Shown here: piece by piece, positions 635 through 31,495 of the stretch
Layout of the letters: every line of letters starts with the position of its first letter
Numbering within the stretch: position 1 is the first letter of the stretch
Assembly (NCBI GenBank): GCA_024137785.1
Contig: JAHRHZ010000062.1
Span: forward strand, 25,646,533 to 25,689,063
Origin: Ginglymostoma cirratum
Lineage: Eukaryota
Direction: 5' to 3'
Length of the DNA: 42,531 nucleotides
Notes under the pieces: generated by a model
The model's database searches: none
What the model was told of the DNA's origin: nothing
What the model saw: only the letters and a program-made list of their open reading frames with translations
Made by a program: the position numbers and the translations under genes

Positions 635-955
635 CAAATATTGTCAAAACATGACTGGATGAGACAGGCTTATTTGAAGTCCCAGTGTGAAGAATTTGCA
701 TTTTGAACTCTTTTCCGTGGTCCACGTAAGTTGGAGTGAATGTCCTTTTGGACCATCGAGAGTACGACCCAGATGATCCATCGAATACAATGTCACCCAT
801 TTCAATTCCACCTTCAGTTTTCTCAAACCCTTTGAGCCAGAATATTTCGTTGTCTTTTGGATAGAAATCGTAAGCTTTACAGAAAAGGGTTACAGGTTTT
901 CCTACCTCCGGGTGAACAGGATCAACTGTAACTTCTGTTAGCTTTGGTGCTAGTA
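635..955 (-). CDS. NCR3LG1: Exon 8, Ig C1-like domain (post-TM); gene continues beyond the left edge
   Basis: Acceptor tttgtttgtctgcag|TA, donor TTTG|gtaagc, 321 nt. LAPKL...VTLFCKAYDFYP...IFWLK...DHGKEFKMQILH, with the F-strand Cys replaced by Met. An assembly gap (1151-1250) lies in the preceding intron. Confidence 0.85.
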
Positions 956-1105
956 CTGCAGACAAACAAAATAAACAGTATTTTTGAGTTTGTATTAATG
1001 AAAATGCCACTATTTTTAAAGATCTCAAGTATCCCTTAATAAATTGTCAACCGTTGTTTTCTTGAACAAAGTGTTGCATTTCACCGACCCTCATTTCCAC
1101 CCCCA

Positions 1106-1106
<1 letters not shown>

Positions 1107-1150
<44 letters not shown>
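1107..1150. repeat. (CA)n microsatellite, at least 22 units, abutting an N gap
   Basis: Read directly. Confidence 0.98.
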
Positions 1151-1250
1151 NNNNNNNNNNNNNNNNNNNNNNNNNNNNNNNNNNNNNNNNNNNNNNNNNN
1201 NNNNNNNNNNNNNNNNNNNNNNNNNNNNNNNNNNNNNNNNNNNNNNNNNN
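1151..1250. other. Assembly gap (100 N)
   Basis: Run of N. Confidence 1.
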
Positions 1251-1445
1251 GTTGCTGGAAAAGCTCAGCAGGTCTGGCAGCATCTGTGAAGGAGAGGACA
1301 GAGTTACCGTTTTGTGTCCGGTGACCCTTCCTCAGCGGTGACCCTTCCTCAGAACTGAGGAAGTGTCACCCGACCTGAAACGATCACTCTGTTTTTTCCT
1401 TCATAGATGCTGCCAGACCAGCTGAGCTTTTCCAGCAACTTTGTT
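1251..1445. mobile_element. Palindromic Penelope-like-element (PLE) terminal-repeat derivative, family A
   Basis: Arms gttgctggaaaagctcagcaggtctggcagcatct and agatgctgccagaccagctgagcttttccagcaac are reverse complements. The centre carries ctgaggaag...gaaacg. Confidence 0.7.
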
Positions 1446-2654
1446 ATTGAATATTGTGAGGCCATTCAAGCCTAATTTTCCACATACTTGGAGGTTGGAT
1501 TTTGTAACGGTGGCATCATGGTTCGTTTTGCGAAGGGGTTATAAAAACTAAATTAGGTATGACAGTCCTTCCAAAACCGTGATATAACCCAGTATATGTC
1601 AGACAGGCAGGGACCCGAGGAGTACCAATTGATCTTTGTATGCACTGTGCTGCTTTAGGACACAGAGCTTAAGTATTGAAATTATTTCAATGAAGCTATA
1701 ACCTTTTTTTTATTCTACCTCACCAGAGCTTATCATTCAAAAAGGTTCTACCCAAGTCTTTCTTTCTTATTTTTGTTTGCAATTATTTTGGGCTTTTGTT
1801 TTAATTCTTGTATTTTTAAACAACAAAGAATATCAAATGGAATAGATTTCATAGGCAGCAAACCAAAACAACTGCAATTTCCTCAGGAACTGAAAATAGA
1901 GGCAGAGGATGGCCATAAGTAAAAAGCTCATTTAGAGAGTTATTATACATTAGAATACAAGAATGATTCAACGAAGTACAGCACTGAGCCACAAAAGATG
2001 GCATTAGATCAAAGCTTAATCAAAGAGGGGGATTTTAGCAAGTCAGCAATAAGACCAAGTGAATGGGCTCTCGTACCCCAGTGGTAGAGAGGTGGTGCAG
2101 AAATGAGGGGCAATTTCATAATTCCGTCATTCTATAGAAGAAAACAACCAAGTTAATTCAATTTTTGGGTGCACCCTTATCTCAAATCAGATCACTTCAG
2201 GTTATTGGCCTTCTCCACAGACCCTTTACAATGCAAAAGTAGTCTGCTGGTAATTTCAGTCATTAATTTAAATTTGAATATTAGTTTCAGGTTTTTTTTT
2301 TCCTTAATTCATTTATGCATTTTTCAATCCCAACTACAGTATTTAATACCCAAGCCAGATTCTGTTGTTGAAATAATGATGATGCAAATGGTATGTGCTG
2401 CGATTGATCCAGAAAATTGCACAGAAAGATCAGTTAAAGGGTTGATGTCTGGCTTAGCTCATGCACGTAAAATGTACAGTCCAAGTTGCCATCAGATTTG
2501 TCAGCATACCACAAATGGTACAGAGCTGCTGAATTTATGTAACAATGGATGAACTAAACATGCCAGAGAGAATTTGGGCTGTTCTGAACTCACTGCAGAA
2601 AGTTACGAGGTTGATCTGAAGTCAGACAAGAAACCCATTGTGGATGATGGATTC

Positions 2655-3045
2655 AAGCAAAAGAACTTTAGGGAGCCTAAAAGGCAATTAAAATCGAGGA
2701 TGAACAAAAGACCAGAAATCAAGAGACGCAGAGGTCTTGGAGGGTTGTGGTGGTGGGTGGAATTACACAGGTAGGAGCAGGCGAGACCACAGATGGATAC
2801 AAAAACAAGGATGAAAATTTGAAAACCAAAACGTCGCTTCACAGTGAGCCATTGCAAGGTCAATGAGCACAGCGGTGAATGAAATAGGGATTTGATGAAA
2901 GTTAAAAGGGCAGCAACATTTTAGATGATCTCAAGTTAGCACAGTGTAGAACTTGGGAGACCAGTCAGGAATGCATTGGGACTGTCATGTCTAAAAGCTA
3001 ACAAATGTATGAATGAGAATTTCAACAGAGGAGCTAAGACAGAAA
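2655..3045 (-). mobile_element. Degenerate L2-type LINE fragment
   Basis: Similar to 37650-38285; purine-rich antisense of an L2-like ORF2 3' end. Family assigned from memory. Confidence 0.45.
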
Positions 3046-3239
3046 CAAAGTACTAAAAAATTAAAGTTTCTTCAGGCACTAATTGTTGACGACTTTAGGA
3101 AATCATCATTCCAAAGGCAATTTTTACATAACTTTTATCTTGCTTTTCCTCCATCTTTCCTGGACATTAAACTCTCCCAAGCAAGTCTTTATTTCCACTT
3201 CTATCCTTGTGCTGTAAATTTCAGCACCTGATGGTGACA

Positions 3240-4190
3240 CAGACACCAGTCACAACAATGCTGTAAATGTCTCACTGACATTTGGGACGAACGTCAAATT
3301 GGAAGATCTGTTCCATGGAATTGTCAAGCATCAACATGACATAGTTATACTCATAGAATTATAAAAGGCAGCCAACACCCTAGACTCATTGTTCATATTC
3401 CTGGGTATGTCCTTAATGAGCAACAAGACAGATCCACAGGAGACGACAAAGATTAGCCCTGGGTGTCTTCTATTTCAGTGGCATTAGCTTAAATATGGGC
3501 AAGGTAACCTCCTGCTGATTACCACCTATCGTTTGCTTTTGGCTGATCAATCAATACTTCTCAAACACAACTTATACAAAGGACTGAGACCTGCAAGGGC
3601 ATGGAATATACGCTCAGAAATGAAGAATGCATCAACTGCAAGTAGGGTAGCTGCAAGTAAGCCAATCAAAGTGAAGAAAAATCTTCCTTGATTGTAATAG
3701 ATATATTAGTGGAGAAGCAAATAGTTCAGTAAATGCCAGACTGGTTGGAGTGAAATCCTATCTTTACACAGAATATGCTCTCCACCATATTATGCAACAT
3801 GAATAATATGGTAAATGGGATAACATTAGCACAGATCTAGCAGCTTACAACTTTGCATCCATGAGGTGCAATAATTCACCACAATCAGTACTTCATGGCT
3901 GTCAATATCTTTTATCCGATCATTGCCAACAAGCTAGGTGATTAGGCCTAGTATAATAGGGAGTGTACTAGAGCATGCCAGGAGCAGCATCAGGAACACC
4001 TAAAAATAACAAAATGTCAACCTGGGGAAGCGACAAGAAAAGGCTACCATTTATGTGAAACTGCTGAAGTAGATGCTTCAGACAGAGAGGACAAATGACA
4101 ATACCAATGGACCAATATAAAGCTCTGTAGTGTTGCCATATGCAGTCATGAATACTGCTATCCAAATAAACAAGTAATGAGAGGAGAATC
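3240..4190 (+). mobile_element. Degenerate LINE endonuclease-region fragment (same family as 10100-12072)
   Basis: Colinear similarity with 10480-11470, e.g. gtcaagcatcaacatgacatagttatactc vs gtcaagcaacagccttacgtagtcata, and acagatctagcagcttacaac vs ggatctaccaactcaagac. Confidence 0.6.
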
Positions 4191-4346
4191 CTGCATGTTA
4201 TGTGCTTAAAAGTCTCTGAAATTTTAAACTGTTTATACAAATGTGTGAGAAAGACTTTAAGAGTTTGAACCAATTATAAAAGGATCAATTATAATTTTCT
4301 TGGGTACTATGAAATTCTAGTACATATGACTAGTAACCTGGCAACT

Positions 4347-4826
4347 TGTGAAGGTAACTGGCACACAGATACAGAAAGATAAACACAGATAACCCAGTGA
4401 GGACAGGAAAGAAATCACTTTCATGAAGTGATCAGTTTTTTGTTTCACAGGAAAAGAGATAGAAATCTTTGGGAGGCTCTGAACAACCTGGTTGAAAGCT
4501 CAGAGACACCAGAGAGCTTGGTGTTTTCCCAGAAGTGGCCAAACCATGAACCAGGTTGTTTTTGGTTGTTCAACTGAAAAGGAACTTTGAAAGCTACACA
4601 CTCAGGAATGTCAATGATGCAAGGAACAGAAGATACTGTAGGGGTGTGTGTTAATAGTGATGATAATTGTACCTGAACCTTGGAGGTGAAAGTTATTGTC
4701 AGGTAGGACTCCTGAACTACCCTGTGTGAATAAAGAACTTTTGAGCAATAAGTGAAGCAAACAGTTATGGTTGCATACGCTGTATCTTGTTGTATTAACT
4801 ATATAAAGCAAATTTACCTTTTCACA
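4347..4826 (+). mobile_element. Possible solo-LTR-like remnant
   Basis: tgtgaaggtaa ... ttaccttttcaca terminal inverted motif with an internal AATAAA at about 4729. No TSD found. Confidence 0.3.
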
Positions 4827-4933
4827 TGTCTGCTAATTCATGTTTAATTTGGTGGTTCTGATTTGTACCAATGTAAAGCTACAAAAAAAAAGTGGAATCT
4901 TGGTAATTTGTTTAATTTGGAGATTATTCACAT

Positions 4934-5290
4934 GGCACAGAGCTCCAGTAGTTAGCACTGCTGCCTCACAGCACCAGGGATCCAGGTTCCATTCCACCCT
5001 CGGGCAACCGTGCGTGTAGAGTTTGCACATTCTCCCCATTTCTATGTGGGTTTCCTCCAGGTGCTCTAGTTTCCTCCCAAAGTCCACAGATGTGCAGGTT
5101 GGATGGACTGGCCATGTTAAATTGTTCATATTGCCCAGGAATATGCTGGTTAGGTGAATTAGTCAAGGGAAATGCAGGGTTACAGGGATAAGGTTGGGAG
5201 GGGTGGATCTGGGTGGGATGTTCTTTGGAGGGTTGCTAATGGACTCAGCAGGCCAAACAGCCTGCTTTCACACTGTAGGGATTCTATGAT
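4934..5290 (+). mobile_element. HE1-like V-SINE
   Basis: Same head, core and tail as the other copies. Confidence 0.85.
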
Positions 5291-5347
5291 TTAGCAAGTT
5301 TCATTGTCTTATAGTTTCTGCATGATGATTTAACAATAGTTACTTAC

Positions 5348-5659
5348 TGAGTTGATCAACCACCCAGTCAACTTCCAATGGCTGTGCTAGACTTTCATGG
5401 CTTACTTGGCAAGTGTATTTCTTCCCAACATCAGTTCTGCTCAGTGTACTCTTTACACTAGTTGTCAGGTGATAGAGTCCATCAATTCCCAGAGTGGGCT
5501 CACTTTGTTCAAAATTTTCTGTCACTTTTTCACCTTGTTTCAACCATGTTATTGTGATTCCGGGAGGGTAAAAAGAACGTATTTGACATTGCAAAGTCAT
5601 GCACTCTCCTGCAACTGGTTTTTCTACATCACACACTATCCTGTCCAATTTTGGTCGGG
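5348..5659 (-). CDS. NCR3LG1: Exon 7, Ig C1 domain (post-TM)
   Basis: Acceptor tttctttttcag|CC, donor CTCA|gtaagt, 312 nt. ARPKL...TLQCQIRSFYP...ITWLK...DGLY...DVGKKYTCQVSHESL is a canonical C1. Confidence 0.9.
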
Positions 5660-5782
5660 CTGAAAAAGAAATGAAAAGATTAAATATACCATAGGCTTTT
5701 AACAGACAAAAATGAGAAAATGGTATCAGTAAACACATTTAATCCATAGTTCTATACAAGGGACGTCAGAAGAATGACATAC

Positions 5783-6157
5783 CTGTAATTTGCAGAAATG
5801 TATCTTTCTGCTTGATAGTGTCAGAGTCGTTATGTTTTACCTCACAGATATACCTTGTTTCTTGGTCTCGCAGTATATCTGGCAAAATAACTAGGACACT
5901 GGTAATACCATAGGATTTATCTTCATATTCTACTTCACTGATTTGATGATGATATTTGGGCTTGTTACCATTGTTAGTAGCAAAGATGGTCCTGTCCTGA
6001 TGCCATCGAACAAGTTCCACATTATTATCCTTCCTGATTTGTTGCCATGTGATTTGAAGAGATTTTGGTTTAAATCCAATTATTGAACAAATCAAGGCTG
6101 CAGGTTCATTATGATAGATATGAAGTGGCACCACAATGTTTGAAATCTTTGGTGGGA
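5783..6157 (-). CDS. NCR3LG1: Exon 6, Ig C1-like domain (post-TM)
   Basis: Acceptor tttccctttcctaaag|TC, donor ACAG|gtatgt, 375 nt. VPPKISNI...LICSIIGFKP...ITW...DQETRYICEVKH. Confidence 0.88.
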
Positions 6158-6397
6158 CTTTAGGAAAGGGAAACAAAATAAAAAAGTCATCTCTTGAAAC
6201 TGAAAGAATTTCCATGTATTAATAAGAACAAGAAAATATTAATATCACAGGTTGCATTTTCTATGATGTAGACAGACTCCAGGCGGCACTACTAACAATA
6301 TGTTACATTGTATGAACAAATACACAAGTTTACAAAAAAAAACAGAATGGATTCATGAAGCATAAAAAAACGTGAAAATAACGTGTACATGATTTAC

Positions 6398-6838
6398 CTG
6401 CTTTAACATCCAGTGTTATAGCTTTTGACTTGGGTTGGGAAACAGTATCATGATAAACTTGAAGAATTAATTCAGCCCCATTATCACTTTTCACATCAGG
6501 ACAGACTTTGACTGTGCCCTCTAACTTGAAAGTCCTATTACTGTTACAGGATAAAGTTGGTTCAGAAGGTGAAAAAGATTTATCCTCTTCACAACAATTT
6601 ATAAGAAGCCGCCCTTCATCTTCATTATTTCGGCACATTGATTGCACATTATTTATATTATACCCATCTGTGCTATTCCAATCTAAAATTTCTTTTCCAT
6701 TTCCATTCTCTCTCCTCTTCAAGATTAAAACAACTCGAATCTTCGAAGGTTTAAATCCATAGACTTGGTAATTGATGAAATTTTCTTCCAAATGGTGAAT
6801 GACGGAAGAGGGTTTCATTTCAATAATTTCTGGAGGAA
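6398..6838 (-). CDS. NCR3LG1: Exon 5, degenerate Ig C1-like domain (post-TM, predicted cytoplasmic) with a long insertion
   Basis: Acceptor cttctttattag|TT, donor GCAG|gtaaat, 441 nt open. VPPEII...FINYQVYGFKP...DNGAELILQVYH...ITLDVKA keeps the C1 pattern but lacks both canonical Cys and the C-strand Trp. Confidence 0.85.
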
Positions 6839-6964
6839 CTAATAAAGAAGATTAAAACTTAACAATATAAATGCTCTTATTTGCTTACTCTGTTTCTTTT
6901 CCTTGCTACGGTGCAGGCAGAGTGCAAATGTAAGTCAATGATTCTGTTTTTTTTTAAATTATTC

Positions 6965-7226
6965 TTTCATAGGATGAGGATGTCACTGGCAAAGCAAACA
7001 CTTGTGGCCCATGCTGAACTTCCCTTGAATGGAGGGACTTGCTCAGTCATTTCAAACAGCAGTTGAGATTCAAGTAAACTGGCGCACGTCTGGAGTCATA
7101 TGTAATTTTCAATTCTGGATTTATTAATTGAATTTAATTGCAATAGTTGGTGTGATGGGACTTGAACCAATGTTTTCCAAAGCATTAGCCTGGGCTTCTG
7201 GATTACTAGTCCAGTGACATTAGCAA
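6965..7226 (-). mobile_element. tRNA-derived SINE of the family seen at 31503-31868
   Basis: Reverse complement of the head (ctggattactagtccagtgac) and tail (ttcataggatgaggatgtcactggc) motifs. Confidence 0.55.
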
Positions 7227-8439
7227 ACACCAGATACATAAGCGAGAGTTTCAGAGAAGTTTATGCTGTCTTTTCTCAATCCAAAAACAGACGAAAAACA
7301 TGTAAATTACATCCAATGGAAACTTTGGCTGGGATTTTCCCCTCTTGATCTCAAAGCTAATACGTTAGGTAGCAGCTTACATGTCACCTACACCAGTGAG
7401 ATAACTCACCCTGTTGCCACAGAATCAGTTCATTAAGAGCTGAGCAAGAGCATCGGAGTCTCTGAGTCCCAGTGTCTGTTGGTCAAAATCTATTCTGCAG
7501 GTGATCCAGCAATGAGAAGTTGTGTCTTTTATCATCTTCTCACAAGATGTGGACATTTGTGGAGGAGGTGGTGATTGGCAAGGCTTTGGGGGATGGGGGG
7601 TGTTGTTGTCAAGCGGCAGAGAAATTTCAGAGGTGACCCTCTTGCAAGTAGGTCACCCTGATTTTCTATTTGGGAGACTAGCCACTGTTCTTCCTTCCTG
7701 GGGAGGTAGGTGATCAAGGAACTGGTGGGGCAATGCCCACAAATGGCGATTAATAGACCACTTTAGGTCCTTAACCTCTAGCGAGTAGAGAAAGTTGCCA
7801 ATAGCCATTGTCACATAGCACTTAATTTCAGAGGGAGCAAGCAAAAATTCTGTCTTTTGTGTTAGAAGCTGGTCCCATACCAAGATTTAATTAATCATTA
7901 CTACAACCCTACTAACTGGACCAATTGTGAGCTTTTGAGGAGCCTCTTAATATTAAGAATAATAAAAACTCAGCAGGGCACCAGCAACCACAGAGAGAAA
8001 ACACAATCAATGCTTCAGGTCAATATTCATTCAGCAGAACTTAGCTGGGTCTGCTGAGGTTTTCCAGCATTATCAGCTTATACTTTCGTATTTTCAGTAC
8101 CTGCAGTATTTTACTTTTCTCTCAAAATGAGCCTTTTTGAAAGATACATGGACACCAGCAGTCAAGATTTAAAAGCTTCTGAATATCATTTTTCTTTTAA
8201 ATTACTAAGAAACTGACTACTGCACACAAACAAAACTAATAAATTGTTCTCTATACATTTAAATTATTTTTTTTTTAACTTGGGTAATCTGCACCAAATG
8301 GACTGCAGCAGTTCAAGAAGGTAGGCCACTGCACTCCTTTTAACAGCAACTAGAAACAGGCAATAAATGCTAGCCCAAGACACTGATTAAATTGCTTTCA
8401 TTGTGAAATCCACAGTATACATATGCGTGAGAAAACTGC

Positions 8440-9672
8440 ACCAGCCTAGGTACTTTTGTTCCCAGGGATATGAGAGAGGTGCCAGGGAACTGAAGAATTA
8501 CAAAACCTGTTCAAAAAAATAACGAGGATAAATCCAGCAAATGAAAGCTTATCTGTTTAACCTCAGTGGTGTGGAAGCCTTGTTAATTTTCTCTCAAAAT
8601 CATCTCTCGATCAGTTGAACAAGCATAAATTTATTAAGGAAAGCCAGCACAGTTTTGCTCGAGGAAGATCACTTATTTTGAAGGGACAACTGAGACGATT
8701 GATGAAGGTGATGTAGTTGTACAATCTATGTGGATGTTCAAGAGGTGTTCAAAGAAGTGTCACTTAATAAACTTGTCGGCAAATGTGAAGCCCATGAAAT
8801 GAATGGGACACTGGCAGTGTGGATATGAAATTGGTTGAGTGACAGGAACCAGGCAGAGGTGGCAAATGATTGTTTCTCAGGCTGGAGCCAGATTATACAA
8901 TGGGGTTTCTCAGGGATTCAGTGGAGTTAAAAGCACAATCAGATCAACCATATGGTGCCAAATGCCTCTATTCCTAATTCTAATGCTCTTAAGCATCGGT
9001 ACTATAGACTGCTGCTTTTTGAGAGACATATTAACGACTTGGACTTGGGTGCACGGGAAAAAAACTTGAAAATCCTTAGATGACATACAATGTGGTAATT
9101 TAGTGAACTGTGACAAGGCTGCTGATACACTGCAAGAAGATATAGGCAGTCTGGAACAGTAGGTGGGCAAGTGGCTGAGAAACATCATGGAGGAAAGTCT
9201 GAAGTTTCACATTTTATTAAGAGGATACAGAAGTCAGGAATGGTTCCAGGGATGAAAGATTTCAATTACATCAAAAAAATTGGAGAAGCTGCGCTTGTCC
9301 TTGTCAGAGCACAGCAGGTTAGAAAGAGATTTGATACAGCCATTCAAAATCACGAGGGTCCAAACACGGCAGATGGACACTGTTTCCACTAGTGGAGGGG
9401 TCAAGAATCAAAGGGGGAAAAATCGTGGCAAAAGAAAAGCAAGGCCGAAATAAGGACAAATCTTTTTAAGCAGCAAATGTTCTTGAGATGGAATGCACTT
9501 CTTTAAAAGGATTCAAATAAGTCTTGCAAAAGACAATTTGATTTTTAAGTACTTGAAAAAGAGATTATGGGGGCAACAGGGAAAAGGCAGAATGAAACCA
9601 GCTGCATTGTTCTGAGAGACAGCCAGTATGGATTTAATCAAACAGCCTCCTTCTATACTGTAACCACGTTAT
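8440..9672 (+). mobile_element. Degenerate CR1 LINE 3' fragment
   Basis: RT-region remnants (aaggaaagccagcacagtttt, gtggatatgaaattggttgagtgacagg) and a CR1-type 3' tail (aacagcctccttctatactgtaac). Confidence 0.7.
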
Positions 9673-9773
9673 AATTTTAGCTTTACTATGCTTAAATAAA
9701 TTTAATTAAAAGAAAAATTTGAAAAGAAACAAAAAAATTGCTCTTAATCAATACCTGATTACCAAATGTAGAA

Positions 9774-10083
9774 GGCACGGTGGCTCAGTGGTTAGCACTG
9801 CAGCCTCACAGCACCAGGGACCCGGGTTTAATTCCAACCTCGGGCGACTGTCTGTGTGGAGTTTGCACATTCTCCCCATGTCTGTGTGGGTTTCCTCCGG
9901 ACGCTCCGGTTTCCTCCCACAGTCCAAAGATGTGCAGGCTAGGTGGACTGGCCATGCTAAATTGCCCATAGTGTTCAGGGGTGTGTGGGTTATAGGGGGG
10001 GTGGGTCTGGGTGGGATGCTCCAAGGGTCAGTGTGGACTTGTTGGGCCAAAGGGCCTGTTTCCACACTATAGGGATTCTATGA
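9774..10083 (+). mobile_element. HE1-like V-SINE (best preserved copy)
   Basis: ggcacggtggctcagtggttagcactgcagcctcacagcaccagggacccggg... with tail tccacactatagggattctatga. Confidence 0.9.
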
Positions 10084-10099
10084 AGACATGTGAAAGTGG

Positions 10100-12072
10100 G
10101 AGGGTGACGGCCCAGCAGTATTATCACTGGATTTCTAATCCAGAGACTCAGATAACATTCTGGGAACCCAGGTTCAAATCCCACGGTTAAAATTCTGGAA
10201 TTGAAAGGCTAATGACGACTGTGAAATTGTCAGGAAAACCCATCTTGCTCACTAATATCCTTTAGGGAGGAAACTGCTGCCATTACCTGGTCTGGCCTAC
10301 ATGCGACTCCAGGCCCAAAGTAATGTGGTTGACTCTTAACTGCCCTCTGAAATGGCCTAGCAAGACACTCAGTTGTATTAAGTGCTAGAAAGGTAAAAAG
10401 GAATTAAACCGAATGGAACGCCCGACATTGACAAGAACACTGGAAATGACAACAACAAACTTGTCATTCCTGCAAAGCACCCCTTATGAACACCTGCGAG
10501 CTAGTGTCAAAATTGAGAGAGCTATCCCACAGACTAGTCAAGCAACAGCCTTACGTAGTCATATATAACATCCCAGGCAACACCATCACCATCCCTGAAT
10601 ATGTCCTGTCCCATGCAGCACAATGGTATAAGGTCACGACGGAGCTGCCCTTCGTCTCCTCAACATTGACTTGACTCCCCATGTAACTCATGTCATCAGG
10701 TCACACACATACTCTGTATCCCCTATCCCCACCCGAACTGATGCATCAGGGTATCTCCATTTGAACGGCATTTGAAGGAAGCATTGAGGGTGGCAAAGGC
10801 ACATAATATACTCAGGATGGGGAAATTTCGACATCCATCACTAAGAATGGCTCAGCAGCAGCTCTACTGACTGAGTTGGCCAAGTCCTAAAGGAAATAGT
10901 TGCTGGACTGGGTCTGCAGCATGGTTGGTAAGGGGACCAATAAAAGGGAAAAGCATAGTTGATGTCATCCTCATCAATCTGACTGCCACAGATGATTCTG
11001 TCATGGCTATATCCATAGGAGTGAACGCTGCATTGACTCTGAAGACAAAGTCTTGCCTTCACATTGAGAATATACTCTATAATGTTGTGTGGCACTACCA
11101 CCGTGCTAAATGGGACAGATTTTGAAAGGATCTACCAACTCAAGACTGGGCATCCGTGAGGCATTGTGGGCCATCAACGGCAGCCGAACTGTACTCCAAA
11201 ACAACCTGCAACCTCATGGCCCAGCATATCTCCACCCCCCAACCCCCGCTCTACCATCAGCATCAAGCCAGGGGATCAACTCTGCTTCAATGGAGAGCGC
11301 AGGAGGATAAGCCCAGAGCAGCACCTGGCATATCTTAAAATGAGGAATTAACCAGGTGAAGCTACAGAACAGGAATAGCTTCATGCTAAACAGCATAAGC
11401 AGCAAGTGATAGACAGAGCTAAGTGATCCCACAAACAATGGATCAGATCTAAGCTCTGCAGTCCTGCCACATCCACTCACTGGAAGAGGAATGACCAGAA
11501 AATGTCCCCGTCCTCAATAGTGGGTGGCCCAACAGTCCTTGCAAAAACAAAAGTGAAGCATTGGCTGCCATTTTCAGCCAGAGCTGCCAAGTGGACAATT
11601 CATCTCTGCCTCCTTCGGAATCTTGACATGATCCATGTCAAGCAGCCTTGGCAATACATCGACAAACATTCAGTCTCTCTACTACAGGCACTCAGTAGCA
11701 GTAGTGTGCACCACCTACAAATTACATTTCAGAAATTCACCAATCATCCTTGGACAGTGCCTTTGATATCCACAATCACTACCATTTCAAAGAACAAGGA
11801 CAGCAGATACAATGGGAAAACCACCACCTGCAAGTCCCCCTCCAAGCTACTCACCATTCAGCTTTGGGCATCTCTCACAAGTCCTTTACTGTTGCCAGGC
11901 CAAAATCCTAGAACTTTCTTCCCTAACAGCATTGTGGGTGTACCAGCACTTAACGGACTGCAGTGGTTCAAGAGGTAGCCCACTGCAGCCCTTTCAAAAG
12001 TAACTAGAAAAAAGGCAATAAATGCTGGCTCAGGCAGCAACATCCACAAAACCTGAGTAAATTAGAAAAAAA
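10100..12072 (+). mobile_element. Internally deleted LINE with a tRNA-SINE-like 5' head
   Basis: Head with B-box ggttcaaatccc, then an APE-endonuclease remnant (KLRELSHRLVKQQPYVVI; VVWHYHRAKWDRF), then a 3' tail ggcaataaatgctggc and an A-rich end. Confidence 0.65.
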
Positions 12073-12202
12073 ACTTTGGCGTGAATCAACGCAATGTGCA
12101 ATGTGTGTTTGAATAGAAAAACTACAAACAAAACTATTTGTGACTGGATCGCCGATTGCAGCTAAAATGTAAACTCCAAGTTCCATATATAACACCAAAA
12201 TA

Positions 12203-12420
12203 GGAGCACAAACAGCTCAGTTGGCTTGAAAGCCGGTTTGTGATGCAATGTGACGCCAACAGTGTGGTTCAACTCCTGCATCGTCTTAAGTTACCATGAA
12301 GGCTCCTCTTTCTCAACCACTCCCCTCTTCTGAGGTGTGGTGACCCTCAGATTATACCACCAACAGTCAATCTCCCCCTAATGAGAGCACGGTCATCCGA
12401 GACTATGGGGACTTAACTTA
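12203..12420 (+). mobile_element. tRNA-derived SINE (separate family)
   Basis: A-box cagctcagttgg, B-box ggttcaactcc, about 220 bp ending gacttaactta. Confidence 0.5.
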
Positions 12421-12515
12421 AGGAACACAACCACCTCAAGGACTTTTATAGGTAATACATGCAAGAAGTAGCTAAAAAATGACAGGAATAATATATTCAC
12501 AAGTGGATATGGTAC

Positions 12516-12626
12516 CTTTTATAGTTCTCCAAAAGAACCATGCAATAAATAATACAGTTCCACAAACAACGAATGCACCAATTATGCTTCCAACAACTGC
12601 TCCAACTGAAGAATCTTTCTCAGGCT
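12516..12626 (-). CDS. NCR3LG1: Exon 4, transmembrane exon: EPEKDSSVGAVVGSIIGAFVVCGTVLFIAWFFWRTIK
   Basis: Not in the ORF track; read by hand. Acceptor gtttcaaatttcag|AG, donor AAAG|gtacca, 111 nt, phase 1-1. About 26 uncharged hydrophobic residues followed by an aromatic belt and an R/K stop-transfer. Confidence 0.88.
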
Positions 12627-14174: not shown

Positions 14175-14495
14175 CTTTAACTGTGAGTCGAGTTGTCCTG
14201 ATAATATCTTTGGGACACGAACGGTGTTTCACGATACACCTGTACACATTACCATTATCTTTCAATGTTGGCTCAATCCATACTCTACTAGAAACACTGA
14301 AAGTTCTATTATCCATGGAAATTAGGGCACCAGTGCAGAAGTGATCTTTTAGTTCCTCAATTCCCTTAGTTGTTTCCTTTTCCCAGATGACATCAAGTTG
14401 GTTAGGGTAAAATCCTTTAACATTACAACTCACAGATCTCTCTGTTCCATTCTGAACAGTAATGTGATCTGTGGACAAATGGACCTCTGGTTCAG
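14175..14495 (-). CDS. NCR3LG1: Exon 3, extracellular IgC1 domain
   Basis: Acceptor tttgtctttaatgtag|CT, donor AAAG|gtatgt, 321 nt. AEPEVHL...VSCNVKGFYP...VIWEKET...TFSVSS...DNGNVYRCIVKH: C1-set with both Cys, Trp and GFYP. Sequons NGT and NRT. Confidence 0.93.
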
Positions 14496-19168: not shown

Positions 19169-19501
19169 CTGACACCTGTAGTTCTGAACTCTTTTCAGCT
19201 TTGAGAGGTGTGACAAATACAATACAAGTGTAGTTCCCTTCGTCTTCAATCTGTATATTTGGAAGAAAAAGTGAAGCATCTCCTTTCCGTAATCCAGCTT
19301 CAAAGATCTTTGCTCCTTGTCTTTTTGAAGTATGTTTGCTTCCATCAAAGGTATAGATCTCCTTTCTGGAGGGCCCAAACCACTGCACCCCAACATTTGT
19401 TAGGCTGAAGGCAGTAGAACCAGTAAATTTGCATTCCAGGGAAACATTTTCTGTCACAAAGACATTTGTTGGGTTTGAAAATATGGTCACATCCAAGGTT
19501 T
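19169..19501 (-). CDS. NCR3LG1: Exon 2, IgV domain of B7-H6/NCR3LG1-like protein
   Basis: Acceptor ttctctttatctag|AA, donor TCAG|gtaaga, 333 nt, phase 1-1. V-set hallmarks: VSLEC, VQW, DASLFLPNIQIEDEGNYTC. The GDASL.LP.IQ.E..G.Y.C.V.VTPLKA segment matches my recollection of the human B7-H6 V domain (compared from memory, no alignment run). Confidence 0.93.
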
Positions 19502-22020: not shown

Positions 22021-23524
22021 CAAGTGTGGAACCTTATATTGTTCTAGCTCTCATGAGTGATGTGAGCGATTATACAAAATGCACACTCTAGCCAGTATTC
22101 ATATGATTTGGCATTCGGGGAAATGCAAGATATGGCACGATTTAAATAATCAACCTGTTTAACTTATGCAAGGGTTGTAGATTTTAAAAATGTTCATTCT
22201 CAGGTTGTGTTTACCACTGACAAGTCCTTCATTTACTGCCAAATCCTTCTTGCATTGACATGGCCGTATTCACCACATCTTTAACTGACCCTGACACTGG
22301 CGGCAGCTGCTCTCTGCCCTTACTCACAACAATGGGACCACAGTGAGCAGTTCTATACAAGTTGATGGTTCCATGCAAGCTAATTAAGCTTAATGAAGAG
22401 CTAGTGTTCCATGGCACTTACAGCCTCTCTCAAACAGATACTCAGTTTTCGGTACTGTTGAAAAAGATTGTCTCTGAGGAAAATAGAAAAGACAGTCAGA
22501 TCTTGGGCACAAAATGTGAATTAGATGGGGTTTGACAAAAGTTAAAAGAATAATTGTTATCGGGGACTCTCCTATCAAGACCACAGACAAGAGATTCTTC
22601 AGCAGTCAGCACAAATCTAGGATAGTATGTTGCATTCCTGGTGCCAGGATTAAGGATGTCTCAGAATGTTTAAAGCTTATTGTTAAAGGAGAGAATGAGA
22701 AACCGGAAGTTATTGTATACGTTGGTAGGAAGGACATAGTTAGGGAAAAGATTAAGGCTTTACAGAGCAAATATAAGAGGTTAGGTAGAAGATTTAAAAA
22801 AAACCTCAAAAGTAGTAATCTCTGGTTTACTCCGGTGCCAAGCTTGAACGAGGGAAAGAATAAAAGGATAAAGGAGATAATTCAACAGCTGAAGAGATGG
22901 TGTAATGTTCAGGGATTCAGGTTCTTGCATCATCAGGATCTCTTCTGGGGCAGAAAACATCTGTTCAAAAGGGATGGGTTTCACCTCTACAGTAAACGGA
23001 CCAATATCCTAGCAGGGAGGTTTGGTAATTCAATTAAGGGAGACTAAACTATTAGAGAGGGGGAGTGGAGGGATCGTAGGTAGCAGACTAAATAGAAAGA
23101 TAGAGGAGGGCTGTTTTGAATCTGAAAAGAATAAGTTAATTAGACAAGACAGACAAGAGCAAGTCAGAGAATGAAGTAACTCTGCAGATTTAAACCGCAC
23201 TTATTTCAATGTAAGGGGTCATACAGGTAAGGCCGACAAACTCAGGGTATGTTTGGGAATATGGGATTGGGATATCAGAGGTATTGCAGAAACATGGCTG
23301 AGGAATGGACAGGTCTGGCACCTCAATCTTCTGGGTTTTAGATGCAACAGGAAGTATAGAAAGAGAGGCAAATGAGGATGGGAAGTGACAATTTTGATTA
23401 AGAAAAACATTAATGCTGTAACTAGAGAAGATATATCTGGAAAATCAACCTGTGAAAATATATGGGTTGAAATTAGAAATAAAAAAGGAATGACTGGGAT
23501 TGTACTACAGACCCATCAATAGTC

Positions 23525-23923
23525 CCCACCTCCCTAACCTGTTCTTCCTCTCACCTATCCCCTCCTCCCACCTCAAGCCGCACCCCCATCTCCTATCTAC
23601 TAACCTCATCCCGCCCCCTTGACCTGTCCGACCTCCCTGGACTGACCTATCTCCTCCCTACCTCCCCACCTACACTCACCTTTACTGGCTCCATCCCCGC
23701 CTCTTTGACTTGTCTGTCTCCTCTCCACCTATCCTCTCCTCTATCCATCTTCTATCCGCCTCACCCCTCTCCCTATTTATTTCGGAACCCTCTTCCCCTC
23801 CCCCATTTCTGATGAAGGGTCGAGGCCCGAAACGTCAAGCTTTCCTGCTCGGCCTGCTGTGTTCATCCAGCTCCACACCTCATTATCTCGGATTCTCCAG
23901 CATCTGCAGTACCTATTATCTCT
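23525..23923 (+). mobile_element. PLE 3'-terminal fragment (family B) inserted in the CR1 APE, with an intact minimal hammerhead motif
   Basis: TSD AATAGTC at 23518-23524 and 23924-23930. Pyrimidine-rich tract, then CTGATGAAGGGTCGAGGCCCGAAACGTC. Confidence 0.8.
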
Positions 23924-24611
23924 AATAGTCACAGGGAAACTGAGGAACAAATATGCAGAGTGATCTCAGATACATGTAAGAATAATAAGGTTGTGATAGT
24001 GGGTGATTTTAATTTTCCAAACATTGACTGGGACTGGCATAGTATGAAAAGTTTGGATCGTGAAAAATTCCTTAAATGTATTCAAGAAAAGTTTCTTTAT
24101 CAATATGTAAATGTTCCTACTAGAGAAGGAGCAAAACTTGATCTTCTCTTGGGTAGTAAAGACAGGGCAAGTGACTGAAATGATAGTAGGAGAACAATTT
24201 GAGTCTGGTGATCATTCTATTGGTTCTAAAATAGCTATGGAAAAAGATAAGACATCCATGAAAATTAAAGATTTCGACTGGAGTAAGGCAAATTTTAAAT
24301 GGTGTGAGACAAGAACGTTCAAAAATTGACTGGAGTAGACTGTTTGCAAATAAAGGGATGTCTGATCTGATTAGTGGAAGGCTTTCAAAAGTATGATAAC
24401 GAGAGTTCAGAGTCATTTTGTTCCTGTTAGAGTGAAAGGCAAGGTTGGTACGATTAAAGAACAATGGACAAATAAAGATATTGAGGTTCTAGTCAAGAGT
24501 AAAAAAGAATCGTATATTAGATATAGATAACTGGGTTAAAACTAATCTCCTTGAACAGTATGCAGCATGTAGAGGCATTCTTAAGAGAGAGATCAGGAAA
24601 GCAAAGAGAGG

Positions 24612-25505
24612 ATAGAAACATAGAAGATAGGAGCAGGAGGAGACCATTCGGCCCTTCAAGCCTGTTCCACCATTCTTCCTGATTATGGCTGATCCTCCAA
24701 CTCAACAGCCTAATCCTGCTTTTTCCTCATAACCTTTGATCTTATTCACCCTGAGTACTATATCTAGCTGCCTCTTGAATACACTGAATGTTCTGGCATC
24801 AACTACTTCCTGTGGTAATGATTTCCACAGGCTCACCACTCTTTGGGTGAAGAAATGTCTTCTCATCTCCGTCTTAAATGGTCCACGCCAAATCCTCAGA
24901 CTGTGACCCCTGATTCTAGACACGCTCACCATTGGGAATATCCTCCCTGTATCTACCTTGCATATTCCTGTTAGAATTTTACAAGTCACAATGAGATCCC
25001 ACCCCCATTCGTCTGAACTCCAACGAAAACAATCCTAACCTCGTCAAAGTCTCCTCAGTCCCACATCCCTGCAATCGGCCTGGTAAACTTTTGCTGCATT
25101 CCCTTGAGGGCAAGAAAAGGAGACTAAAATTGCACACAATATTCTAGGTATGGCCTCACCAAGGCCCTGTATAACTGCAACAAAACATCCCTGCTCCTGT
25201 ACTCAAAACTTCTCGCAATGAAGGCCAACATACCAACATGCCTTCTTTACCACCTGCTGCACCTGCATGCTTACCTTCAGTGACTGGTGCACAAGGATGC
25301 CCAGGTCCTGCTACACACTCCCTTCTCCAAATTTACAGCCATTCAGGTAGTATCTGCCGCCTTGTTTTTGCTTCCAAAGTGAATAATCTCACATTTATCC
25401 AAATTATACTGCATCTACCTTTGATATGCCCACTCACCCAACACATCCAGATCATGCTGAAGGATCTCTGCCAAAGTTCACCTTCCCATCGAACTTGTTT
25501 TCAAA
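24612..25505 (-). mobile_element. Inverted CR1 3' fragment nested in the larger CR1
   Basis: ORF 24702-24989 (RGHSLRIWRGPFKTEMRRHFFTQRVVSLWKSLP). The host reading resumes at about 25506. Confidence 0.85.
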
Positions 25506-26105
25506 CATATGAGATATCCTTTGCAAATAAGGCTAAGAATAATCCAAAGTGATTCTACAAGCACATTAGGAGCAAGAGAGCAATGACAGAGAAGGTGGGC
25601 CCCTTAAAGATCAAAGAGGTCATCTTTGTGTTGAACCTCAGGAGATGGGAAAGATATTATATGAATATTTTGTGTCAGTTTTTACTTCAGAGAAACAAAT
25701 GGAGGCTAGAGAACTCAGGGAAATAAATATTGATGTTCTGAAAACAGTTCACATTACAGAAGAGGAAGTGCTGGAAGTCTTAGAAAATATAAAAATAGAT
25801 AAATCCCCTGGATCTGATCTAGTGTATCCCAGGACATTGTGGGAAGTTAGAGAGAAAATTGCGAGGCCCCTTGCAGACACATTTGTACCATCTATAAATA
25901 CGGGTGAGGTGCTGGATGACTGGCGAGTGCTAATGGTGTGCCTTAGTTTATGAAGGAATCAAGGAAAAGCCTGAGAGCTATAGGCCTGTGAATCTGACCT
26001 TGGTAGCAGGTAAGTTGTTGGATTTGATTCTGAAAGATAGGATTTATGTATATTTAGAGAGGCAAGTCATGATTAGGGATGGTCAGCATGGTTTTGCGAG
26101 GGAAA

Positions 26106-26447
26106 TCATAGAATTCCTACAGTGTGGAAACAGGCCATTCAGCCCAACAAGTCTACACCGTTCCGCCAAAGAGTGTCCCACACAGGCCTATTCCCCCACC
26201 CCTGCATTTCCCATGTCTGACCCACCTAATCTACACATCCCTGAACACTATGGGTAATTTAGCACGGCCAATCTAGCTAACCTGCACATCTTTGGACTGT
26301 GGGAGGAAACCGGAGCACCTGGAGGAAATCCATGCAGATGTAGGGAGAATGTGCAATCTCCACACAGACAGTCACCCAAGGTGGAGTAAAACCCGTGTTC
26401 CTGGTGATGTAAGGCAGCAGTGCTAACCACTGAGCCACTGTGCTACC
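26106..26447 (-). mobile_element. HE1-like V-SINE nested in the CR1 RT
   Basis: Antisense copy that splits the host GKS|CLTNLI motif, with CAT on both flanks. Confidence 0.88.
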
Positions 26448-27641
26448 CTACATGTCTCACAAACTTGATTAAGTTTTTTGAGGAAGTAACCAAGAAGATT
26501 GAAGATGGCAGAGCAGCAGACATTGTTTATTTGGACTTTAGTGAAGTCTTTGACAAGGTTTTGCTTAGTAGACTAATTAGTAAAGTTAGATCACGTGGGA
26601 TTCGGGGTGAGCTTGCCGATTGAATATGAAATTAGCTCAATGGCATGGTGGAGGGTTGTTTTTTGGATTGAAATCCTGCGATCAGCACTGGGTCCATTGT
26701 TGTATGTCATTTAGAAGGCATGGTTAGTAAGTTTGGGGGGTGACACCAAGATTGGTGGTATAGTGGATGGTCAATAAGGTTATCTAAGATTACAAAGAGA
26801 TTTTGATCAATTGGGTCAATGGGCTGAACAGTGACAGATGGAGTTTAATTTGGAAAAATGTAATGAATTGCATTTTGGTAAAACAAACAAAGGGAAGACT
26901 TAACAAAGTAGGGCCTTGGGTAGTGTGACAGAACACAAATCTATGAGTTCAGGTGGATAATTCTTGGAAGTTTGCATCACGTATAGATAGGGTGGTTAAG
27001 AAGGCATTTAGCATGCTTGCCTTCATTGCTCAGACCTTTGAGTATAGGAGTCGGGATGCTATGTTGAGATTATACAGGGTGTTGGTGATGCCTCTTCTGG
27101 AGTACTGTGTTCAGGTTTGGTCACCCTATTATAGGAAGGATATTATTAAGCTGGAGAAGGTTCAGAAGAAATTTACCATGACGTTGCTGGGAATGGAGGG
27201 TTTGAGTTATGGGGAGAGGCTAGATTGGCTGGGACTTTTTTCACTGGAGCATATGAAATTGAGGGGTGACCTTACGGAGGTTTATAAAATCATAGGATTA
27301 TAAATTAGGTGAGTAGCAGGTGACTTTTCTCTATAGTAGGGTATTTCAAGCCCAAGGGCTTTTTTAGGGTGAGAAGAGAAACATTTAAAAAAAGACAGGA
27401 GGGGCAATTTATTTACACAGAGTAGTTAGTGTGTGGAATGTACTTTCAGACGAAGTTGTGGATGCTGGTACAGTTACAGCATTTAGGTAAGTATATAAAT
27501 AAGAAACGTTTGTGGGAATTGGGCCAAGTGCAGGCAGGTGTGACTAGTTTAGTTTGGGATTGTGGTAGGCATGGACTGATTAAAGAGAACGGTCCGTGCC
27601 GTATGACTCTACGTTGATTAAAACAAATCTACTTCTGTTTC

Positions 27642-28270: not shown

Positions 28271-28343
28271 CTGCGACACGGGCAAACCACAACGCGAACA
28301 CAGCGTACAACAGGAGAGCCTCAGCAGAAGCCTTAACTCTCAT
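28271..28343 (-). CDS. NCR3LG1: Exon 1 (signal peptide) of B7-H6/NCR3LG1-like gene: MRVKASAEALLLYAVFALWFARVA
   Basis: ATG at 28343, then a basic N-region, hydrophobic core and a small residue at the end. Ends in a consensus phase-1 donor GCAG|GTAAGG at 28271 that splices in frame to the V exon. Lies in a CpG-enriched stretch. In-frame upstream ATGs at 28370, 28382 and 28439 make the exact start uncertain. Confidence 0.82.
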
Positions 28344-28403
28344 TTGGAGATACCTTCTCTCCAGTAACATTCGCACGGCCATTTCGCAGAAGAAGAAAAA
28401 TAA

Positions 28404-29812: not shown

Positions 29813-30219
29813 GAGCAGCTTGGTGGACTTTCAGCCTTGGAGCTGGGATAGTAACCTAGAGTAGTACATTGTCCAGGAAGAGGAGACCACCACTCAAACT
29901 TGGTTGGCCTTTTGCCTGCAGTAGGAAGACAAGCATTTGATTGTTGACAGGCTCCTGGGAAAGCTGGACTTCAGGGTCCAGAAGAGTTGGGGGGTGGGTG
30001 GGGAAGCGGGGAGGAAGGGGTGATCAAATGTTCCAGGTAGCTGACCTCAACTACTGACTATGTAGTCTGGTATTTCCCTTGTCTCCAGTTTAGCTCCTTC
30101 AGGGAAAAAGGGGTGTACCTTCCATCTCTCAATCCTTCAGAATCTTGCCACTGATCACCACAAAGGAACCATAAAGTAAGTATCCCAAATGCTTCCTTAA
30201 CCACTTTATCTACCCATCT

Positions 30220-30422
30220 AAAAACCAAAAGAACTGCGGATGCTGTAAATCAGGAATTAAAATAAAGTTGCTGGAAAAGCTCAGCAGGTCTGGCAGCATC
30301 TGTGAAGGAGAAAACGGTGTTAATGTTTTAGGTCCAGTGACCCTTCCTCAGAAGGTTAACTCTGTTTTCTCCTTCACAGATGCTGCCAGACCTGCTGAGC
30401 TTTCCCAGCAACTTTGTTTTTG
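30220..30422. mobile_element. Palindromic PLE-derived element, family A, with TSD
   Basis: Flanked by ttatc(t/g)acccatct at 30206-30219 and 30423-30436. Confidence 0.8.
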
Positions 30423-30436
30423 TTATCGACCCATCT

Positions 30437-31495
30437 GTTACCTTAAGGGATTGATGTACATGCACAGCAAGGTCCTACTGATCCTCCATGTTTCCCAGAC
30501 TCCTGTTGTTTGTCACGTATTCCCTTGCTTTGTTTATCCTGCCCAAGTGCATCACTTCACATTTATCTGGATTGAATTCCGTTTGTCACTGATCAGCCCA
30601 TCTGACCAGCCTGTCTAGATCCTCCTGCAGTCGAAGGCTATCCTCCTTACTATTTATCACCTGACCAGTTTTTGCATCATCTGCGAACTAACTGATCAAC
30701 CCTCCCATATTCGAGTCTAAATTGTTTGTACATACTATATACAGCAAGTGCCCCAACACTGTTCCCTGCAGAACCCAACTGGACATAGGCTTCCAATCAC
30801 AAAAACACCCTTCACCATCATCTTTGCTTCCTGCCACTCAGCCAACTCTGGATCCAATTTGCCAAATTTCCTTGGATCCCATGGGCTGTTACCTTCACTA
30901 TCAATCTCCCATGTGAAACCTTATCAAAAGCCTTGCTGAAGCCCAATTACACTATGTCAAATGCATTACCCTCAACTACATACTTGGTCACCTCTTCGAA
31001 AATTGATTCAAGTTGGTCAGCCATGATCACTCCTTAGCAGAACCAGGTTCTTGATTAATCTCTATCTCTCCAAGGGCAGATTAATACTGCTCCTCAGAAT
31101 TGCTTCCAGTAGGTTCTTTGCCACAGAGATGAGACTGACTGGCATGCAGATTCCTGGCTTATTCCCTGGTATCTTGAATAATGGTATCCAACTGGCAGTC
31201 CTCCAGTCCTCTGGCATCTCTTCTGGGGCCAGAAAGAAAGTGAAAATTATTGCCAGCACCCCTGCTATTTCCTCCTTTGCCTCACCCAACAGCCTGGGAT
31301 ACATTTCATCCAGCCCTGGAGATCTATCTACTTTTAAGACTGCCAGACACTCAGAATCACCTTTCTAGCTATGCTACTTTCTTTAAGTATATCACAGTTC
31401 TTCTCCCTGATTTCTAAACTGACATTGTTCCTCTCATCGTGAACACCGACACAAATTTAGAACCTTATATATGTCTAACATCTCTATGTACAAAT
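30437..31495 (-). mobile_element. CR1 RT fragment (continues, degenerate, to about 32870)
   Basis: ORF 31062-31304 (YPRLLGEAKEEIAGVL...PEDWRTA..IPLFK...PVSLISVAKNLLE). Confidence 0.85.

What the first reader, a model, noticed from the sequence alone, without database searches (positions are those of the whole stretch)
635..12626. B7-H6-like receptor with an array of at least four Ig domains on the cytoplasmic side of the membrane
Seen: after leader, IgV and IgC1 comes a clear 111-nt TM exon (12516-12626) with a phase-1 donor. At least four more phase 1-1 Ig C1-like exons follow in frame, and I found no new leader exon between them. Established: C1-set domains (Ig, TCR, MHC, tapasin, SIRP, B7-H6) are normally extracellular or luminal, and human B7-H6 has a non-Ig tail derived from retroviral Gag. 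Inference: this shark NKp30-ligand homolog has topology V-C1-TM-(C1-like)x4+, an intracellular Ig scaffold of more than 480 aa that could act in reverse signalling, cytoskeletal anchoring or cytosolic sensing. I have an unverified recollection that some amphibian B7-H6 paralogs carry cytoplasmic Ig domains, so novelty needs checking. I know of no function for such a tail.
Basis: partly seen in the sequence, partly recalled or inferred. Interest (0 to 1): 0.92.

Follow-up and report, generated by a model that had tools for sequence, protein, structure and literature searches.

The report
Shark B7-H6 with intracellular Ig tail
This is the already deposited nurse-shark gene for B7-H6, the partner of the NK-cell receptor NKp30; seven antibody-like domains hang on the inside of the membrane, a layout shared from sharks to reptiles, and the first of them carries a conserved sorting-type signal that may control how much of the protein stays on the cell surface.

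Summary
Eight phase-1 exons give leader-V-C1-TM and four more Ig domains. The translation is identical to residues 1-771 of QTT61906.1, nurse-shark B7H6 (1092 aa), which crosses the TM-to-exon-5 junction and adds three more Ig domains with no second TM. The layout recurs in sharks, rays, bichir, coelacanth, lungfish, amphibians and reptiles, so it is probably the ancestral B7-H6 form; the human Gag-like tail would be derived.

Sequence evolution supports a cytosolic tail. The canonical Cys pair is kept in V (45/46) and C1 (47/48) but lost in five of seven tail domains. Sequons are enriched only before the TM. Basic residues follow the TM.

Added here: the hypervariable loop of the first tail domain holds a [DE]xxxL[LIM] motif in 48 of 85 homologues (3.7 by chance) and 24 of 29 later-fetched ones (1.3). 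My best mechanism is adaptor-dependent endocytic or lysosomal sorting that limits surface display of the NKp30 ligand; this is inferred, not shown.

The protein is known, and the tail may be described in three papers I could not read. No read-level evidence for the junction was obtained.

The parts
28271..28382 (-). Exon 1, leader (signal peptide); QTT61906.1 starts at the second in-frame ATG (28370)
   Evidence: hydrophobic core, phase-1 donor
19169..19501 (-). Exon 2, IgV domain with the B7-H6 FG-loop residues that contact NKp30
14175..14495 (-). Exon 3, extracellular IgC1 domain
12516..12626 (-). Exon 4, single transmembrane helix; 111 nt, phase 1-1, so it can be skipped in frame
6398..6838 (-). 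Exon 5, tail domain D1: divergent C-type Ig without the canonical Cys pair, with an inserted variable loop of about 30 aa
6603..6620 (-). Acidic dileucine motif ([DE]xxxLL; residues 362-367 of QTT61906.1) in the D1 loop, candidate adaptor-protein sorting signal
   Evidence: motif definition from PMC2173715
5783..6157 (-). Exon 6, tail domain D2 (C1-set, Cys pair kept)
5348..5659 (-). Exon 7, tail domain D3 (C1-set, Cys pair kept)
635..955 (-). Exon 8, tail domain D4 (C1-set, F-strand Cys lost). D5-D7 and the stop lie left of the window

Best explanation
The gene is nurse-shark B7-H6 (NCR3LG1), a type I membrane protein. Shown in sequence: a leader, a V-C1 ectodomain that keeps the main NKp30-contact residues, one TM helix, and seven C1-derived Ig domains that run to the C-terminus. 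Strongly inferred: the seven domains are cytosolic, and this is the ancestral jawed-vertebrate form of B7-H6. Inferred mechanism (about 0.6): the [DE]xxxL[LIM] motif in the loop of D1 binds the clathrin adaptors AP-1/2/3 and sends the protein to endosomes or lysosomes, so that little NKp30 ligand is displayed until stress or infection blocks that sorting. D2-D7 most likely form a rod-like scaffold or spacer for cytosolic partners (about 0.4; no partner identified). The confidence below is for identity, topology and a trafficking role together; identity and topology alone are about 0.9.
For: Junction: QTT61906.1 contains it. Identity: the best PDB match is human B7-H6, E 2.7e-32, against 1.5e-18 for B7-H3; model-to-3pv6 TM-score 0.90 by target length, rmsd 2.1 A; 7 of 11 NKp30-contact residues of PMC3135353 Table II are identical, including T127, P128 and K130. 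Range: 106 of 181 proteins held (isoforms included) have V + C1 + TM + at least one Ig after the TM; named ones span sharks, rays, bichir, coelacanth, lungfish, caecilian, newt, axolotl, frogs, gharial, turtles, snakes and lizards, many named NCR3LG1 by NCBI. Topology, on 49 proteins chosen from the 181: both canonical Cys in V 45/46, C1 47/48, D1 1/48, D2 42/45, D3 44/45, D4 0/40, D5 9/34, D6 2/32, D7 0/29; sequons 110 observed against 75.7 expected before the TM, 173 against 164.3 after it; net charge more positive after the TM in 39 of 45. Fold: seven separate post-TM beta-sandwiches, mean pLDDT 84.8. Motif: 48 of 85 D1 loops against 3.7 in shuffled loops; 13 of 23 against 1.1 after thinning to under 35% identity; acid at position -4 in 77% of 57 loops that have L[LIM], background 17%, other positions 5-32%; 24 of 29 later-fetched loops against 1.3. 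Loop identity is 15%, against 28% for the rest of D1.
Against: No experiment on topology or trafficking, and no reads were laid across the junction. D2 and D3 keep both cysteines. The motif is missing in 37 of 85 loops (strict [DE]xxxL[LI] in only 35 of 85). It was spotted by eye before it was tested, and the later set is related to sequences that seeded its search. The two models disagree on the loop: pLDDT under 50 over 347-371 in the full-length model, but 67-77 with a helix and a short strand over the motif in the D1-only model, so the leucines could pack on the domain. The motif lies about 80 residues from the TM. TM-less database models exist. NKp30 binding by the shark protein is untested, and 4 of 11 contact residues differ.
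Confidence: 0.62

Rival explanations
1. The tail is cytosolic but works mainly as a signalling or pathogen-sensing scaffold (reverse signalling, or bait for viral or host proteins); the dileucine is structural or secondary.
For: Tail content changes fast: D1 x7 in Heterodontus, D4 x6 in Mobula, D2 absent in reptiles; tachylectin after D1 in a Xenopus model; CARD-NACHT-LRR after a post-TM Ig in a Mustelus B7-like model; a Gag-like tail with ITIM, SH2 and SH3 motifs in human B7-H6 (PMC2715080). Seven domains are far more than sorting needs.
Against: No conserved tyrosine motif: the linker SxYxxL-type motif is in 4 of the 49 aligned proteins, all sharks. The exact -4 acid register fits an adaptor signal better than core packing. 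No partner was identified.
Confidence: 0.25
2. The Ig array matters mainly in a TM-skipped, secreted form (V-C1-D1...D7) that acts as a soluble NKp30 decoy; the membrane form is incidental.
For: The TM exon is symmetric and skippable. V-C1-tail models without a TM: 7 of 181 (among them RefSeq X2 isoforms P0032 and P0033 of a shark paralogue, joined exactly at the exon boundary), plus P0214 and P0215 among the 39 new proteins. D2 and D3 keep their cysteines.
Against: TM-containing models outnumber them 106 to 7. Five of seven tail domains have lost the disulfide, and tail sequons are at chance level. The deposited nurse-shark protein has the TM. TM-less rows do not form one group, and some may be prediction errors. 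A minor secreted isoform beside the membrane form remains plausible (about 0.35).
Confidence: 0.08
3. Exons 5-8 belong to a separate downstream gene, and the join is an annotation chimera.
For: The intron after the TM exon is 5.7 kb; I obtained no reads across it; most homologues are computational gene models.
Against: The same junction appears in QTT61906.1 and in independently annotated genomes from sharks to reptiles, with D1 starting right after the TM. There is no leader candidate in the intron.
Confidence: 0.02
4. Inverted topology: the hydrophobic segment acts as a signal anchor and puts the Ig array in the lumen.
For: C1-set domains are normally lumenal (established knowledge); D2 and D3 keep the Cys pair.
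Against: V and C1 keep their disulfides and enriched sequons and follow a leader; positive-inside bias in 39 of 45; no second TM in QTT61906.1.
Confidence: 0.03

Closest known systems
Nurse-shark B7H6, GenBank QTT61906.1 / UniRef100_A0A8A9WSM4
   Same: Identical over all 771 residues that the window encodes, TM-to-D1 junction included.
   Different: Nothing. The record has 321 further residues whose exons lie outside the window.
Human B7-H6 (NCR3LG1; PDB 3PV6, 4ZSO, 6YJP)
   Same: Leader-V-C1-TM type I layout; best PDB match; FG-loop T-P-L-K and two glycine contacts identical.
   Different: The human protein has 454 aa and a Gag-homologous tail with ITIM, SH2 and SH3 motifs (PMC2715080); this one has about 800 aa of seven Ig domains.
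Reptile and amphibian NCR3LG1 gene models (gharial, turtles, snakes, lizards, Rhinophrynus, axolotl)
   Same: V-C1-TM-D1 followed by the same ordered tail domains, with the dileucine motif in most.
   Different: Reptiles lack D2; many frog paralogues keep only D1; a kiwi model stops inside D1.
[DE]XXXL[LI] sorting signals (LIMP-II, HIV-1 Nef loop)
   Same: Fixed acid at -4, LL/LI/LM pair, variable flanks; in Nef the signal also sits in a loop of a folded cytosolic domain (PMC2173715).
   Different: Here it is inserted in a cytosolic Ig domain about 80 residues from the TM; adaptor binding is untested.
Intracellular Ig arrays (titin, myosin-binding protein C; recalled) and IGSF1
   Same: Tandem Ig domains that work without the canonical disulfide (recalled); titin I65-I70 is the top whole-chain Foldseek row, for a generic tandem-Ig reason (rmsd 52 A).
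   Different: Those are I-set domains in soluble proteins; here the domains are C1-derived and in the tail of an immune surface ligand. IGSF1 keeps its Ig domains lumenal through extra membrane segments (recalled); none exists here.

Membership tests
B7-H6 / NCR3LG1 | Leader, IgV, IgC1, single TM | tested here: met
B7-H6 / NCR3LG1 | Ectodomain closer to B7-H6 than to other B7 or tapasin-like proteins | tested here: met
   PDB phmmer: B7-H6 E 2.7e-32, B7-H3 1.5e-18, TAPBPR 3.5e-15. The V exon alone scores B7-H3 (two repeats summed) slightly above B7-H6
B7-H6 / NCR3LG1 | NKp30-contact residues, above all FG-loop Thr127, Pro128, Lys130 | tested here: met
   7 of 11 identical; S60, M61, F82 and V125 differ. 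FG-loop [TS]P in 88 of 106 homologues
B7-H6 / NCR3LG1 | Binds NKp30 and activates NK cells | not testable with these tools
B7-H6 / NCR3LG1 | Conserved synteny with the human NCR3LG1 locus | not tested
   no neighbouring gene recognised in the window; the genome was not searched
B7-H6 / NCR3LG1 | Gag-like cytoplasmic tail (a feature of the human protein, not of the family) | tested here: not met
   the tail is seven Ig domains
Ig C1-set domain | C-type beta-sandwich fold or Pfam C1-set match | tested here: met
   D2-D4 by Pfam; D1 by fold; D5-D7 by model and mutual similarity
Ig C1-set domain | B-strand to F-strand disulfide | tested here: not met
   the Cys pair is absent in D1 and D4-D7 of this protein and present in D2 and D3. 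They are C1-derived domains, not canonical members
[DE]XXXL[LI] adaptor signal | Acid at -4 and a dileucine pair, conserved against variable flanks | tested here: met
[DE]XXXL[LI] adaptor signal | Exposed, unstructured and cytosolic | tested here: inconclusive
   disordered in the model, partly ordered in the model
[DE]XXXL[LI] adaptor signal | Binds AP-1/2/3 and directs sorting | not testable with these tools
   needs a binding or trafficking assay

The most novel reading that the evidence does not exclude
Ancestral B7-H6 is a self-limiting NK ligand. A cytosolic array of disulfide-free C1 domains carries an adaptor signal in D1 that keeps the ligand off the surface, and the array senses stress or infection (by partner binding, cleavage or viral attack) and masks or removes that signal, exposing the cell to NKp30. 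Tail swaps in other lineages (Gag-like, lectin, NLR) would be exchangeable sensors on one ligand. The probability covers both being true and the sorting part being unpublished.
Probability: 0.2. Interest if true: 0.85.

Novelty: already known. Interest (0 to 1): 0.5.

Why it matters
C1-set domains are textbook extracellular modules of adaptive immunity. Here a string of them appears to have lived in the cytosol since the last common ancestor of sharks and reptiles, shedding its disulfides. The protein itself is on record, so the layout is not a discovery. What may be new is (a) quantitative support for the cytosolic topology, (b) the range from sharks to reptiles, which makes the human Gag-like tail the derived state, and (c) a conserved sorting motif. 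The motif gives a two-residue test of how an NK-activating ligand is kept off healthy cells in non-mammals, and raises the question of what replaced that control in humans.

Tried and rejected
Read-level support for the junction was not obtained, so splicing rests on the deposited protein and on database models. The whole genome was not available as a file and was not searched, so D5-D7 exons and synteny are unmapped.

The three papers most likely to describe the tail (Flajnik 2012 PMC3709836, Ohta and Flajnik 2015 PMC4594805, Kinlein 2021 PMC8273117) are not held; I saw only their titles in reference lists, and their supplements may bear on novelty. Nine searches on B7-H6 evolution or tail showed no listing or passage describing cytoplasmic Ig domains or a dileucine motif in B7-H6; one search was swamped by unrelated papers, and only 30 of 92 and 30 of 481 rows were listed. 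The elephant-shark supplement had 0 hits. Earlier scan findings: nothing.

ITIM or tyrosine signalling was rejected as the conserved function. A second TM was rejected: the only other hydrophobic peak, in D2 of the catshark rows, is a beta-strand. A hidden leader exon was rejected. Whole-chain Foldseek was dominated by generic tandem-Ig matches. The ESM Atlas gave chordate V/C1 clusters at 0.90-0.92 without alignments. The V-domain tree is a quick tree on 121 columns with many open forks and no outgroup; the careful run did not finish. Rfam gave 0 matches. No complex prediction was run.
Full report
Observation. The minus strand carries eight exons, all GT-AG and phase 1: leader 28382-28271, V 19501-19169, C1 14495-14175, TM 12626-12516, then 6838-6398, 6157-5783, 5659-5348 and 955-635. 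Spliced, they give 775 residues without a stop, with one strong hydrophobic segment after the leader (Kyte-Doolittle peak 2.49). Exons 6-8 pass the Pfam C1-set cut-off; exon 5 has no Pfam match. A scan of the TM-to-exon-5 intron found no leader-like exon, while the true leader passed the same filter. Tblastn of all proteins then held hit only the bins of these exons.

Identity. [quoted passage not shown] The window's translation equals its first 771 residues. The record crosses the TM-to-exon-5 junction and continues with three more Ig domains to the C-terminus, with no second TM. I could not see whether the record comes from a cDNA, and I have no reads across the junction. Human B7-H6 is the best PDB match (E 2.7e-32; B7-H3 1.5e-18). 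Seven of the 11 NKp30-contact residues in Table II of PMC3135353 (passages read) are identical in the alignment, including Thr127 and Pro128, which that paper credits with 44% of contacts and both hydrogen bonds, and Lys130 of the salt bridge. AlphaFold2 with 49 sequences gives V, C1, a TM helix and seven separate post-TM sandwiches (mean pLDDT 84.8, pTM 0.42). D1 alone (pLDDT 87.2) matches C-type Ig domains at Z 10.5-10.9.

Range. Searches returned the layout in 14 named shark species and 6 rays or skates, bichir and reedfish, coelacanth, lungfish, caecilian, newt and frogs, and axolotl, gharial, turtles, snakes, lizards and geckos, many named NCR3LG1 by NCBI. Of 181 proteins held, isoforms included, 106 have V, C1, TM and at least one Ig after it; 7 have V, C1 and tail domains without a TM; 26 have post-TM Ig domains with another or incomplete ectodomain. 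The order D1 to D7 is kept in sharks, frogs and axolotl; reptiles lack D2. No mammal appeared in these word-limited searches, which is weak evidence. Human B7-H6 is 454 aa with a Gag-homologous tail (PMC2715080, passages). By parsimony the Ig tail is ancestral and the human tail derived (inference; the tree is quick and unrooted).

Topology. On 49 proteins chosen from the 181 for long tails, both canonical cysteines are present in V 45/46 and C1 47/48, but in D1 1/48, D4 0/40, D5 9/34, D6 2/32 and D7 0/29. D2 (42/45) and D3 (44/45) keep them, which this reading does not explain; buried free thiols or a second, secreted form are the options. Sequons number 110 against 75.7 expected before the TM and 173 against 164.3 after it. 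Net charge is higher after the TM in 39 of 45. The rows are related, so these are not independent events, but all three signals change at the TM as a cytosolic tail predicts.

Mechanism. D1 has an inserted loop (10-40 aa, mean 26) that is less conserved than the rest of the domain (15% against 28% identity). From 87 proteins with C1-TM-D1 (11 isoform or duplicate ids dropped), 85 had a loop of 10 residues or more. Of these, 48 hold [DE]xxxL[LIM], against 3.7 (max 12) in 2000 shuffles of the loops; after thinning to under 35% identity it is 13 of 23 against 1.1. Anchored only on the L[LIM] pair (57 loops), position -4 is acidic in 77%, against a background of 17% and 5-32% at other positions. 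Among 39 proteins fetched afterwards, 29 had TM-D1, and 24 of these hold the motif (18 in the strict form) against 1.3; they are related to seeds of that search. PMC2173715 (passages) defines [DE]XXXL[LI] as a cytosolic signal for endosomes and lysosomes bound by AP complexes, notes LL, LV and LM variants in Nef, and places the Nef signal in an exposed loop. I infer adaptor-dependent sorting that limits surface display of the NKp30 ligand. Against this: the motif is absent in 37 of 85 loops, it was seen by eye first, the two models disagree on whether the loop is ordered, and nothing was tested at the bench. For D2-D7 I can only propose a scaffold; no tyrosine motif is conserved.

Rivals. A signalling or sensing scaffold (0.25) is favoured by rapid change of tail content: D1 x7, D4 x6, tachylectin, and an NLR in a B7-like model. 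A mainly secreted TM-skipped form (0.08) is allowed by the symmetric exon and by TM-less models but conflicts with disulfide loss; a minor secreted isoform is plausible. A separate gene (0.02) and an inverted topology (0.03) fit poorly.

Novelty. The protein is deposited and named, so the finding is filed as already known. Those three papers are not held; I saw their titles only, in reference lists. Nine library searches gave no listing or passage on such a tail or on a dileucine motif. Other papers were seen as passages only and added nothing on the tail: PMC12227049, PMC10751288, PMC10450919, PMC11599192, PMC6373925, PMC12272517, PMC13297526, PMC12983459; for PMC3964593 only a supplement search, with 0 hits.

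Verdict. The feature is real, the topology is well supported, and the gene is known and widespread. The disulfide-loss pattern and the sorting motif are the parts that may be new, and the motif is directly testable. Interest 0.5.

Noticed in passing
P0239 (Mustelus asterias LOC144492602 isoform X2, 1346 aa): B7-like V-C1-TM-Ig followed in one model by CARD, NACHT, NLRC4-HD2 and LRR: a membrane-tethered NLR if real, a gene-model fusion if not. The cluster has 5 member sequences.
   Followed up: partly
P0133 (Xenopus laevis): V-C1-TM-D1 followed by a tachylectin domain on the post-TM side.
   Followed up: partly
P0085, P0109, P0130 and relatives (frogs): A second group, V-C-C-TM-(C1-like)n with up to about 8 post-TM domains, forms its own branch of V domains (support 94) apart from the B7H6 rows.
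   Followed up: partly
P0080 (Pogona), P0100 (bichir), P0121 (eel): V-C1-TM with three post-TM Ig domains, falling outside the main B7H6 branch: possibly a paralogous family with the same topology.
   Followed up: partly
P0034 (Heterodontus), P0022 (Mobula), P0021 and P0024 (skates): Lineage-specific exon amplification: D1 x7 in near-identical copies, D4 x6, and a doubled V-C1 ectodomain in skates.
   Followed up: no
P0032, P0033, P0214, P0215: RefSeq isoforms without the TM (shark paralogue, sea turtle, boa) suggest a secreted B7H6 form.
   Followed up: partly
P0031, P0224, P0057, P0226: Sharks and rays have further paralogues with the same layout; the whale-shark one has a locus number next to the orthologue's.
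   Followed up: no
window 1107-1250: (CA)22 microsatellite beside a 100-base assembly gap in the D3-D4 intron; QTT61906.1 shows that no coding exon is missing there.
   Followed up: yes
window about 22500-27300 and 30200-31400: Broken ORFs that look like CR1-type LINE fragments in intron 1 and upstream (label recalled, not tested).
   Followed up: no
window about 32600-34300 and 38300-40600: Degenerate stretches that look like Harbinger-type transposase remnants (by eye; label recalled, not tested). No other protein-coding gene was recognised upstream.
   Followed up: no
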